A stretch of DNA of 7,735 nucleotides from a virus (taxonomy: Duplodnaviria; Heunggongvirae; Uroviricota; Caudoviricetes). The stretch lies in IMG/VR virus record IMGVR_UViG_2713896783_000029; one strand, written 5' to 3'. Below, in pieces: positions 2,403 through 2,675 of the stretch. Within the stretch, counting starts at the first letter, position 1. Each line of letters begins with the position of its first letter. Both the position numbers and the translations under genes were made by a program. The notes under the pieces were generated by a model. The model worked only from the letters and a program-made list of their open reading frames with translations, had not been told where the DNA came from and did no database searches.

Positions 2403-2675
2403 TCATTTCTCGTTATTTGTCATGCTGGCCGGACGCAGATGCGTTGCATCTGTTGCCAGCCTTCTCCTGCAGGCTTCAATAACCCACGCTGAAAAGTTAC
2501 CGGAACCTTTATGTTCAAGGGCGATATTNNNNNNNNNNNNNNNNNNNNNNNNNNNNNNNNNNNNNNNNNNNNNNNNNNCTTTATGTTCAAGGGCGATATT
2601 GATCTGTTCAATCATGTGATTGGGGAAACGGATATTGCGGGTTGTGGTTCTGCGGGTCCGGTTTTTCGATGACAT
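2403..2675 (-). CDS. ylcI: YlcI/YnfO-like small protein (DUF3950), predicted ribbon-helix-helix fold; length inflated by the third N-run
   Basis: Minus-strand translation MSSKNRTRRTTTRNIRFPNHMIEQINIALEHK[gap]GSGNFSAWVIEACRRRL... matches my recollection of the DLP12 prophage protein YlcI. SD (rc AAGGAAA) lies 7-8 nt upstream of the ATG at 2675; the longer ORF-track start at 2735 would overlap the HNH gene and lacks an SD. Collapsing the duplicated flanks of the N-run gives about 66 aa. Confidence 0.55.
   Translation of the reverse strand: MSSKNRTRRTTTRNIRFPNHMIEQINIALEHKXXXXXXXXXXXXXXXXXNIALEHKGSGNFSAWVIEACRRRLATDATHLRPASMTNNEK
2507..2600. repeat. Assembly artifact: 50-N spacer (2529-2578) flanked by an identical 22-nt sequence on each side
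   Basis: CTTTATGTTCAAGGGCGATATT occurs at 2507-2528 and again at 2579-2600, immediately either side of the N-run. This is the pattern of two contig ends overlapping by k-1 nt that were joined with a spacer rather than merged. The ORF stays in frame only because 22+50 = 72. Confidence 0.7.

What the first reader, a model, noticed from the sequence alone, without database searches (positions are those of the whole stretch)
2403..2675. YlcI-like ribbon-helix-helix protein transcribed divergently from the HNH-terminase operon
The minus-strand protein has a beta-strand / helix / helix pattern (RNIRFP - HMIEQINIALE - NFSAWVIEACRRRL) typical of RHH DNA-binding proteins of the CopG/Arc/antitoxin type. 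It is the only minus-strand gene in the window, has no partner toxin gene, and starts 41 bp from the HNH start. It could be a moron-encoded regulator acting on the GTTAAC repeats or on host genes. Function is unknown as far as I recall.
Basis: inference. Interest (0 to 1): 0.4.

Follow-up and report, generated by a model that had tools for sequence, protein, structure and literature searches.

The report
YlcI-family small DNA-binding protein gene
The flagged minus-strand gene is a real, common and already annotated prophage gene (YlcI/YnfO family, DUF3950, also present unannotated in phage lambda) that most likely encodes a small Arc/Mnt-like DNA-binding regulator, but its target in this phage is still unknown.

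Summary
The ORF at 2403-2675 (-) is real. It is interrupted by an assembly artefact: a 50-N gap plus a 22-nt duplicated flank. Collapsing those 72 nt gives a 201-nt, 66-aa gene whose DNA is identical to WP_000095744.1 in complete E. coli genomes.

The protein is a clear DUF3950 / YlcI-YnfO member. The ylcI-HNH junction occurs in 1255 of 5426 complete E. coli genomes. Phage lambda carries an unannotated copy about 200 bp from its right end.

The ribbon-helix-helix (RHH) call is moderately supported. hhalign aligns the strand and helix A with Arc/Mnt in the correct register and beats 200 of 200 column shuffles. There are also weak HicB-like hits and a two-helix AF2 model. Fold searches found nothing.

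The gene is the only supported minus-strand gene in the window. It has no toxin partner and starts 41 bp from the HNH start.

Homologues in PICI/cf-PICI-like satellites sit at a repressor-like position. They are divergent from the icd-primase operon, and 3-4 element-specific palindromic operator-like repeats lie between. The window and lambda copies lack such repeats.

Binding to the GTTAAC array remains untested. The gene itself is ordinary, with a modestly interesting regulatory lead.

The parts
2403..2675 (-). ylcI/ynfO-family (DUF3950) CDS. As written in the window it is 273 nt. The true gene is 201 nt / 66 aa (MSSKNRTRRTTTRNIRFPNHMIEQINIALEHKGSGNFSAWVIEACRRRLATDATHLRPASMTNNEK).
   Evidence: ORF list and sequence. 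Gap collapse. Pfam, PHROG and NCBIfam hits. Identity to WP_000095744.1 DNA. Codon-position selection pattern.
2529..2600 (.). Assembly artefact inside the CDS: 50 N (2529-2578) plus a 22-nt duplicate of 2507-2528 (2579-2600).
2622..2642 (-). Codons for residues 12-18 (TRNIRFP), the putative RHH beta-strand. It carries the N-x-R-x-P motif shared with Arc (FNLRWP) and Mnt (FNFRMP). R16 is invariant; I15 and F17 are nearly invariant.
   Evidence: Alignments A1 and A4. hhalign register.
2457..2495 (-). Codons for residues 37-49 (FSAWVIEACRRRL), the putative helix B and the core of Pfam DUF3950. F37, W40, V41 and C45 are invariant.
2676..2716 (.). 41-bp divergent spacer between the ylcI ATG and the HNH ATG. 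It holds both Shine-Dalgarno sequences (AAGGA for ylcI on the minus strand, GGGG for HNH). It has no room for a full promoter, no consensus sigma-70 site and no repeats.
   Evidence: Sequence. Promoter scan. Repeats.
2710..2739 (-). Weak candidate ylcI promoter read by eye: TGGAGT (2739-2734), 18-nt spacer, TAAAAT (2715-2710), overlapping the HNH start. It is below the scanner's threshold and is an inference only.
   Evidence: Sequence. Not reported, which instead lists a 9/12 site at 2805-2777 (-).
1930..2271 (+). Convergent downstream neighbour: TonB_C-domain lipoprotein gene. It is not a toxin.
   Evidence: Pfam TonB_C at 5.8e-15. RefSeq annotation.
2717..3082 (+). Divergent upstream neighbour: HNH endonuclease, the first gene of the HNH-TerS-TerL packaging module.
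   Evidence: Pfam HNH. Annotation.
3172..3300 (.). GTTAAC / (A)TGTTAAC(A) palindrome array between HNH and terS, with five sites at 3175, 3183, 3251, 3274 and 3289. It more likely belongs to the packaging module. Untested.
   Evidence: 8 sites in the window against 1.2 expected, and 0 of 200 shuffles reach 8. Repeat structure.

Best explanation
The gene encodes a 66-aa, very basic protein of the DUF3950 / YlcI-YnfO family (pI 11.5; the first 18 residues carry a net charge of +6). It most likely folds as an Arc/Mnt-like ribbon-helix-helix dimer.

Proposed structural layout:
- Residues 12-18 (TRNIRFP) form the DNA-reading beta-ribbon.
- Residues 19-32 form helix A.
- N36 caps helix B, which spans residues 37 to about 50 and carries the invariant F37, W40, V41 and C45 in the dimer core.
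- Residues 50-66 form a variable, disordered tail.

The protein is a stand-alone accessory gene on the strand opposite to the late operon. It sits at the junction between the lysis/accessory region and the DNA-packaging module of a lambdoid (Marienburgvirus-like) E. coli prophage.

Inferred function: a sequence-specific transcriptional regulator, probably a repressor. By analogy with its satellite homologues, it would bind short palindromes with TGT/GTG...ACA/CAC arms as cooperating dimers.

In PICI/cf-PICI-like satellites, the family member occupies the classical repressor position. It is the lone opposite-strand gene, divergent from the icd-like / primase operon, and 3-4 element-specific palindromes overlap the divergent promoters.

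The phage copy has no such operator set next to it. Its target is therefore probably in trans (a host, satellite or other prophage site), or else the nearby TGTTAACA array.

What is shown: gene reality, family membership, selection, synteny, and the repeats in satellites. What is inferred: the RHH fold, DNA binding, repression, and expression from the uninduced prophage.
For: Family membership: Pfam DUF3950 at 4e-20, PHROG 949 at 2e-33, NCBIfam YlcI_YnfO_N above its cut-off.

Selection: codon-position divergence of 0.355 / 0.263 / 0.626.

RHH fold:
- hhalign of 32 family cores against a mixed RHH alignment gives P = 1.7e-4. Against 64 Arc/Mnt sequences it gives P = 7e-4.
- Both alignments place TRNIRFPNHMIEQINIALEHKG on Arc QFNLRWPREVLDLVRKVAEENG.
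- 0 of 200 column-shuffled templates reach the observed score in either case.
- PHROG HicB-like (RHH region) matches at E = 0.007 for this protein and 1.4e-4 for the Pmp7 homologue.
- The AF2 model has an extended segment at 14-18 and helices at 19-32 and 37-55, with pLDDT 74-85 in the core.

Context in phages:
- The arrangement is the same in JLK-2012 and Stx phages.
- It is found in 1255 of 5426 E. coli genomes.
- In lambda, DLP12 and Qin the gene is divergent from nu1/nohD/nohA.

Context in satellites:
- The gene is the lone opposite-strand gene between antA/alpA/int and icd-primase.
- 3-4 palindromic repeats lie at about -110, -87 and -40, with spacings of 23-26 and 45-47 bp.
- The repeat sequence co-varies with the strand residues. 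Y12/G14 proteins from Xenorhabdus and Serratia have TGTTTAAACA and TGTGTAAACA. An E. coli variant with strand LQTRAP has GTGGAnTCCAC.

Expression: the K-12 homologue ylcI is listed as transcribed, in a convergent excludon ybcW-ylcI, in at least 50% of RNA-seq samples from uninduced cells (PMC12288877).

Composition: GC is 0.48, against 0.55-0.58 for the packaging genes.
Against: - hhalign probabilities are only 26-50% and cover the strand plus helix A, not helix B.
- Pfam RHH families do not hit. Only 1 of 32 members touches HicB_lk_antitox, at E = 0.07.
- The monomer model shows no beta-strand and has a mean pLDDT of 70.
- No consensus promoter or terminator was found for the gene in this window.
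- No operator-like repeats lie upstream of it here or in lambda, so the repressor analogy with satellites may not carry over.
- No experimental paper on the family was found.
Confidence: 0.5

Rival explanations
1. Packaging or cos accessory factor. YlcI binds the (A)TGTTAAC(A) array between HNH and terS, or otherwise works with TerS/HNH. It would either modulate cos recognition and cleavage or repress the packaging operon in the lysogen.
For: - The gene always abuts the packaging module in lambdoid phages: nu1/A in lambda, DLP12 and Qin, and HNH-TerS-TerL here.
- The GTTAAC array is strongly non-random. It has 8-bp tandem boxes and a 23-bp spacing that recall RHH operators and the 23-bp spacing of the satellite repeats.
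- One satellite protein (P0191) fuses DUF3950 to a TerS N-terminal domain that is 60% identical to this window's TerS.
Against: - Lambda's YlcI has an identical recognition strand (TTTRNIRFP) but its cos region has no GTTAAC array. The array therefore tracks the terminase type, not YlcI.
- The fusion protein is a singleton on one assembled contig.
- Satellite homologues sit next to replication genes, not packaging genes.
Confidence: 0.12
2. Helper-satellite cross-talk factor. The phage copy is a paralogue of a satellite repressor and acts in trans on resident PICI/cf-PICI operators. It would either keep satellites silent or induce them, for example through mixed dimers.
For: - The same family occupies the repressor-like position in satellites, including E. 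coli cf-PICI-like islands.
- The phage copies lack cis operators, while the N-terminal domain is conserved across different phage modules.
- No repressor is described for Gram-negative PICIs in the papers read. Induction there is attributed to helper activation of alpA.
Against: - This is purely inferential.
- Satellite operators are element-specific, and none was matched to the phage protein's strand residues.
- Identity between the phage and satellite proteins is only about 36-46%.
Confidence: 0.12
3. The protein is not an RHH. It is instead a small helical protein with a non-DNA function, for example a protein-protein adaptor whose variable C-terminal tail binds different partners.
For: - Fold searches gave no match.
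- Pfam's DUF3950 model covers only the two helices.
- The C-terminal tails vary with the neighbouring module.
- A DUF1398 gene lies 41-42 bp downstream on the same strand in the Qin-type loci.
Against: - The basic N-terminal arm, the invariant R16, the N-x-R-x-P motif and the register-correct hhalign matches all fit an RHH.
- Fusions to other DNA-binding domains (P0191, and possibly P0205) and the operator-like repeats next to homologues point to DNA binding.
Confidence: 0.15
4. Orphan antitoxin: the remnant of a toxin-antitoxin pair whose toxin has been lost.
For: Many RHH proteins with disordered C-terminal tails are antitoxins. There are weak HicB-like hits.
Against: - No co-directional partner gene was found here or in any surveyed context.
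- There is no PADLOC hit.
- Strong conservation as a single gene in thousands of genomes argues against a decaying remnant.
Confidence: 0.04

Closest known systems
E. coli K-12 YlcI (DLP12) / YnfO (Qin), and the unannotated lambda ORF at 48109-48303 (-)
   Same: Same Pfam and NCBIfam family. The first 52 residues are 88% identical, and the strand motif TTTRNIRFP is identical. Same placement: the last gene before the packaging module, on the opposite strand.
   Different: The C-terminal tail differs after residue about 50. The neighbour here is an HNH + Terminase_2-type module with only a 41-bp spacer, instead of cos + nu1 at 370-390 bp. None of these proteins has a known function.
P22 Arc and Mnt repressors (RHH, Pfam PF03869)
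   Same: Small size. An N-terminal basic arm followed by an N-x-R-x-P strand, helix A, a loop and helix B. hhalign aligns the strand and helix A in register. Both are phage-encoded.
   Different: Similarity is weak and helix B does not align. The window protein does not reach any threshold for PF03869. Arc and Mnt have mapped operators next to their genes, whereas none is seen here.
YlcI/YnfO-family proteins of PICI/cf-PICI-like satellites, adjacent to Icd-like genes (for example E. coli ABW_S38 WP_000190571.1, K. pneumoniae ATCC 13883 island, Pasteurella Pmp7)
   Same: Same family (tblastn E values of 1e-9 to 1e-12; PHROG 949). Single opposite-strand gene in an otherwise co-directional element.
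   Different: The satellite copies are divergent from icd-primase, with 3-4 palindromic repeats and a conserved covarying leader hairpin. The window copy has none of these and abuts packaging genes.
HicB antitoxin C-terminal RHH domain
   Same: Weak profile hits to PHROG 497 and Pfam HicB_lk_antitox.
   Different: There is no HicB N-terminal domain, no HicA toxin gene, and the E-values are marginal.

Membership tests
DUF3950 / YlcI-YnfO family (Pfam PF13132, NCBIfam NF041551, PHROG 949) | Score above the curated family cut-offs | tested here: met
   Pfam 71.8 bits against 25. NCBIfam 35.3 against 30. PHROG 949 at E = 2.4e-33 over 59 of 61 positions.
DUF3950 / YlcI-YnfO family (Pfam PF13132, NCBIfam NF041551, PHROG 949) | Conserved motif K/R-x-I-R-F-P ... 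N-F-S-A-W-V-x-[ED]-A-C | tested here: met
   All invariant columns (R16, I25, F37, W40, V41, C45) are present.
Ribbon-helix-helix (Arc/MetJ/CopG) superfamily | Beta-strand, helix, helix topology of about 45 residues | tested here: inconclusive
   The AF2 monomer shows an extended segment at 14-18 and helices at 19-32 and 37-55. No strand is assigned and mean pLDDT is 70. The strand would form only in a dimer, which could not be modelled.
Ribbon-helix-helix (Arc/MetJ/CopG) superfamily | Detectable sequence or profile homology to established RHH families | tested here: inconclusive
   hhalign gives P = 1.7e-4 and 7e-4 in the correct register, and 0 of 200 shuffles reach the score. Probability is only 26-50%, however, and no Pfam RHH model hits. 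PHROG HicB-like matches at 0.007 and 1.4e-4.
Ribbon-helix-helix (Arc/MetJ/CopG) superfamily | Structural superposition on a solved RHH | tested here: inconclusive
Ribbon-helix-helix (Arc/MetJ/CopG) superfamily | Obligate dimer that inserts an antiparallel beta-ribbon into the major groove of repeated sites | not testable with these tools
   This needs a multimer model, a crystal or NMR structure, and EMSA or footprinting.
Type II toxin-antitoxin antitoxin | Adjacent co-transcribed toxin gene | tested here: not met
   There is no co-directional neighbour. The downstream gene is a convergent TonB_C lipoprotein. No conserved partner was found across 40 loci. PADLOC was negative.
Phage moron (autonomously expressed accessory gene) | Own promoter and terminator, orientation or composition distinct from flanking operon, expression in the lysogen | tested here: inconclusive
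   Opposite strand and lower GC (0.48 against 0.55-0.58) are met. No consensus promoter or terminator was found. Expression was not tested here. The K-12 homologue is reported as transcribed in uninduced cells (PMC12288877).
Satellite-type DUF3950 repressor/operator module | 3-4 palindromic repeats (spacing about 23 and about 46 bp) in a divergent intergenic region next to icd-primase | tested here: not met
   Present in L003, L050, L053, L057, L062, L068, L071, L083 and L092. Absent upstream of the window gene and of lambda ylcI.

The most novel reading that the evidence does not exclude
DUF3950 proteins are the so-far undescribed repressors of Gram-negative PICI/cf-PICI satellites, acting through operators that overlap the icd-primase promoter. 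The copy carried by lambda, Stx-type and other lambdoid phages would then be a helper-side paralogue that talks to those satellites in trans, either silencing them or triggering them. That would make this small gene part of a phage-satellite regulatory arms race.
Probability: 0.12. Interest if true: 0.7.

Novelty: new member of a known kind. Interest (0 to 1): 0.33.

Why it matters
The gene itself is ordinary. It belongs to an annotated family that is present in about a quarter of complete E. coli genomes and in phage lambda.

It would matter in two ways. First, a functionless 'DUF' carried by the best-studied phage, and by Shiga-toxin-type prophages, would gain a fold (Arc/Mnt-like RHH) and a testable activity (sequence-specific DNA binding). 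Second, its satellite homologues look like repressor/operator modules controlling the replication operon of PICI/cf-PICI islands. The papers consulted describe no repressor for these islands. If confirmed, this would add a regulatory layer to satellite induction and might link helper phages to satellites through paralogous regulators.

Tried and rejected
- PDB sequence and profile searches returned only chance coiled-coil or unrelated hits.
- A Pfam scan of 32 family cores at E <= 10 found no recurrent RHH family.
- PADLOC gave no defence-system hit for YlcI.
- Rfam found nothing in the window or in the satellite leaders. The only hit was the int-alpA RNA in Pmp7. I had considered a C4/CI-like immunity RNA for the conserved leader hairpin, and this was not supported.
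- Long antisense ORFs (224-429 aa) cover the DUF3950 ORF in satellites. I considered dual coding, or that DUF3950 might be the wrong strand. I rejected both. Only the C-terminal ~70 aa (the Icd-like part, PHROG 1743) has homology, and the N-terminal part has none. RefSeq annotates a short Icd-like gene plus YlcI. The codon-position pattern favours the DUF3950 frame.
- I considered that satellites copied the ylcI-cosQ-cosN cassette from lambda. blastn of the lambda cos junction against the satellite upstream regions found nothing, and the shared CACGTCAA 8-mer is too short to count.
- A search for satellite-type GTG-N-CAC operator sets near the window or lambda gene found none.
- The DUF3950::TerS-N fusion (P0191) is a singleton on one Logan contig, so I gave it little weight as a Rosetta-stone link.
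- The literature search for YlcI, YnfO and DUF3950 returned only lists and tables, with no functional study.

Full report
**1. What is in the sequence**

The window is the late region of an E. coli lambdoid prophage. It is 95-97% identical to Stx1a-converting phages and to Escherichia phage JLK-2012 (Marienburgvirus). The plus-strand genes are as follows:

- KilAC/ANT antirepressor-like protein, 312-1007
- lysis genes, broken by two N gaps
- TonB_C lipoprotein, 1930-2271
- HNH endonuclease, 2717-3082
- Terminase_2-type TerS, 3371-3934
- TerL, 3931-5592
- prohead protease / major capsid fusion, 5656-7593

The flagged ORF runs on the minus strand from ATG 2675 to stop 2403, and its start lies 41 bp from the HNH ATG. 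The other long minus-strand ORFs lie inside terminase and capsid genes and hit no family.

**2. An artefact inside the gene**

The window has three runs of exactly 50 N. The third (2529-2578) lies inside the ORF and is followed by a 22-nt exact copy of its left flank (2507-2528 = 2579-2600). Removing these 72 nt gives a 201-nt gene. That gene aligns without indels to JLK-2012. It is identical base for base to the gene for WP_000095744.1 in the complete chromosome of E. coli E2863. The exact 66-aa protein is recorded on at least 1000 contigs. The true product is:

MSSKNRTRRTTTRNIRFPNHMIEQINIALEHKGSGNFSAWVIEACRRRLATDATHLRPASMTNNEK

Its pI is 11.5, and the first 18 residues carry a net charge of +6.

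**3. Identity**

The protein is an unambiguous member of DUF3950 / YlcI-YnfO. It scores 71.8 bits on Pfam against a cut-off of 25, sits above the cut-off for NCBIfam NF041551, and matches PHROG 949 at 2e-33; the PHROG family has no assigned function.

- The ylcI-HNH junction is present in 1255 of 5426 complete E. coli genomes, with a median of two copies. RefSeq annotates it as 'YlcI/YnfO family protein'.
- Phage lambda itself encodes a copy at 48109-48303 (-), about 200 bp from its right cohesive end. Its sequence is identical to the 64-aa copy found beside Nu1-type terminase genes in E. coli chromosomes (L016 and L028), which from memory is K-12 DLP12 YlcI. NC_001416 does not annotate it.
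- The family is narrow. At 50% clustering it has 101 representatives, many of them frameshifted fragments, and it is essentially restricted to Enterobacterales, Pasteurellaceae and Orbaceae.
- Many 'hits' in unrelated taxa sit on 3.5-kb or 48.5-kb contigs and match at the same 88% identity over residues 1-52 as the lambda records; I read them as lambda control-DNA contamination, which I did not verify.
- Across 39 distinct loci, divergence by codon position is 0.355 / 0.263 / 0.626. This shows purifying selection in this reading frame.
- No functional study was found. The family appears only in gene lists. One of these lists ybcW-ylcI as a convergent transcript overlap seen in at least half of K-12 RNA-seq samples. 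The DLP12 homologue is therefore transcribed in uninduced cells (PMC12288877).

**4. Is it a ribbon-helix-helix protein?**

Evidence in favour:

- The family alignment shows an invariant R16 and nearly invariant I15 and F17 in a K/R-N-I-R-F-P segment. This is followed by an amphipathic helix, an N-cap (N36) and a second helix carrying invariant F37, W40, V41 and C45.
Against 64 Arc/Mnt sequences retrieved here it gives P = 7e-4.
- Both comparisons place TRNIRFPNHMIEQINIALEHKG on Arc QFNLRWPREVLDLVRKVAEENG.
- None of 200 column-shuffled templates reaches the observed score in either case.
- The shared N-x-R-x-P motif corresponds to Arc N11 and R13, which I recall as base-contacting residues.
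- PHROG's HicB-like family (its RHH part) is hit weakly, at E = 0.007 here and 1.4e-4 for the Pasteurella homologue.
- The AF2 monomer model has an extended segment at 14-18 and helices at 19-32 and 37-55.

Evidence against, or missing:

- hhalign probabilities are only 26-50% and helix B does not align.
- No Pfam RHH model hits.
- No dimer could be modelled.

I rate 'RHH-type DNA binder' at about 0.65. It is supported but not shown.

**5. Context in phages**

In lambda, DLP12, Qin and E. albertii prophages the gene is divergent from nu1/nohD/nohA, at 370-390 bp across cos. Here and in Stx-type phages it is divergent from HNH-TerS-TerL at 41 bp.

The first ~52 residues are 88% identical between these two settings, whereas the flanks and the C-terminal tail differ. 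The conserved unit is therefore the N-terminal domain itself.

There is no co-directional partner gene, so the protein is not an antitoxin. No consensus promoter or terminator was detected. The 41-bp spacer holds only the two ribosome-binding sites, so the ylcI promoter must overlap the HNH 5' end. A weak TGGAGT-18-TAAAAT candidate at 2739-2710 is inference only. GC is 0.48 against 0.55-0.58 for the packaging genes, which fits an accessory gene.

**6. Context in satellites: the most informative comparison**

More distant homologues (36-55% identity) occur in Klebsiella, Enterobacter, Serratia, Xenorhabdus, Pectobacterium, Brenneria, Pantoea, Gilliamella, Pasteurella and some E. coli. They lie in PICI/cf-PICI-like islands with this gene order:

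int - alpA - antA/B - [DUF3950, the only opposite-strand gene] - icd-like - small ORFs - primase - (capsid genes)

The 140-200-bp divergent region between DUF3950 and icd-like has three features:

- A hairpin in the icd leader with compensatory changes.
- Three or four copies of an element-specific palindrome with conserved arms. Examples are TGTGCGCACA, TGTTTAAACA, TGTGTAAACA, TGTCCGTACA, GTGCGGCCACAC, GTGCACAAACAC and GTGGAnTCCAC. They lie about 110, 87 and 40 bp before the DUF3950 ATG, with spacings of 23-26 and 45-47 bp.
- The conserved ACACGTCAA, which joins a palindrome arm to TTGACG. On the icd strand, TTGACG is a near-consensus -35 element.

Proteins with the same strand residues (Y12, G14, from Xenorhabdus and Serratia) have near-identical palindromes. 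An E. coli variant with strand LQTRAP has a different palindrome arm. This is the signature of a repressor and its operators, and it supports DNA binding as the activity of the family.

The PICI papers I read mention no repressor. They attribute induction to helper-activated alpA.

Long antisense ORFs that cover DUF3950 in these islands are shadow extensions of the icd-like gene.

**7. What this means for the window gene**

Neither the window copy nor lambda's has such an operator set nearby. Their upstream regions also share no sequence with each other. A conserved DNA-reading domain without a conserved cis site suggests a target in trans.

The GTTAAC array at 3172-3300 is strongly non-random. 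It has RHH-like features: 8-bp tandem boxes and a 23-bp spacing. However, lambda has an identical recognition strand and no such array, so the array more probably belongs to the Terminase_2-type packaging module.

A DUF3950::TerS-N fusion exists but is a singleton.

**8. Verdict**

The most likely mechanism is a small Arc/Mnt-like RHH dimer acting as a sequence-specific transcriptional regulator, expressed as an accessory gene of the prophage. Its target is unidentified (confidence 0.5).

Rival explanations:
- packaging/cos accessory factor (0.12)
- helper-satellite cross-talk (0.12)
- non-RHH helical adaptor (0.15)
- orphan antitoxin (0.04)

The gene is a new member of a known kind and is already annotated, so interest is modest. 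The satellite repressor/operator pattern is the lead most worth following.

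Noticed in passing
L092:6184-6381; L071:5859-6000; L053, L057, L062, L050, L068: 5790-6010; L003:4518-4692: In PICI/cf-PICI-like satellites, the region between the DUF3950 gene and the divergent icd-like / primase operon carries 3-4 element-specific palindromes. Their spacings are 23-26 and 45-47 bp, and their sequence co-varies with the protein's strand residues. This looks like an undescribed repressor/operator module.
   Followed up: partly
L071, L062, L046, L064, L057, L067: about 130-170 bp upstream of the DUF3950 ATG (for example L092:6214-6252): A conserved hairpin lies in the 5' leader of the icd-like operon. It shows compensatory changes (GAAGCCCGG...CCGGGCTTC against GACGCCTCG...CGGGGCGTT). 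It matches no Rfam family.
   Followed up: partly
window 3172-3300: Five GTTAAC sites lie between HNH and terS. They include an 18-bp perfect palindrome, CAGTTAACATGTTAACTG, and an inverted pair, GCAAATGTTAAC / GTTAACATTTGC. The window holds 8 sites against 1.2 expected. They are probably TerS or cos recognition sites.
   Followed up: partly
window 1258-1307, 1521-1570, 2529-2578: There are three runs of exactly 50 N, which are scaffold gaps. The first two interrupt the lysis genes. The third is flanked by a 22-nt duplication, so it hides no sequence.
   Followed up: yes
L002 2710-2904 (lambda NC_001416 48109-48303, minus strand): The RefSeq record for phage lambda does not annotate its YlcI-family ORF (64 aa), which lies about 200 bp from the right cohesive end. 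From memory, this ORF is identical to K-12 DLP12 YlcI; this was not checked against a K-12 record.
   Followed up: yes
L006-L033, L036, L039, L040, L042, L054, L065 (genome-contig hits): Lambda-like ylcI matches (88% identity to the query over residues 1-52, the same as the lambda records) turn up in assemblies of Streptomyces, Cohnella, Pseudomonas, Flavobacterium, Nanosynbacter MAGs and others, on contigs of about 3.5 kb or 48.5 kb. This looks like lambda control-DNA contamination of public assemblies; I did not align these contigs to lambda.
   Followed up: no
L003:4714-5103: A satellite ORF fuses a DUF3950 domain to a TerS N-terminal domain that is 60% identical to this window's TerS residues 2-51. 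It is a singleton on one Logan contig.
   Followed up: partly
L086:2786-3313 (P0205 cluster, 48 members): A 175-aa DUF3950 protein with a long C-terminal extension is the lone opposite-strand gene of an element of about 8-9 kb. The element carries an integrase and occurs in Enterobacter, Klebsiella and Citrobacter.
   Followed up: no
L091:4435-5109 (Pasteurella phage Pmp7): The deposited annotation calls a 224-aa 'transcriptional repressor' on the strand opposite to the DUF3950 ORF. Only its C-terminal ~70 aa (the Icd-like part) has homology, so the DUF3950 gene is probably missed there.
   Followed up: partly
window 2427-2461: An imperfect 16-bp inverted repeat (GGCCGGACGCAGATGC / GCATCTGTTGCCAGCC) lies inside the 3' part of the ylcI gene, in the region encoding the variable tail. 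Its significance is unknown.
   Followed up: no
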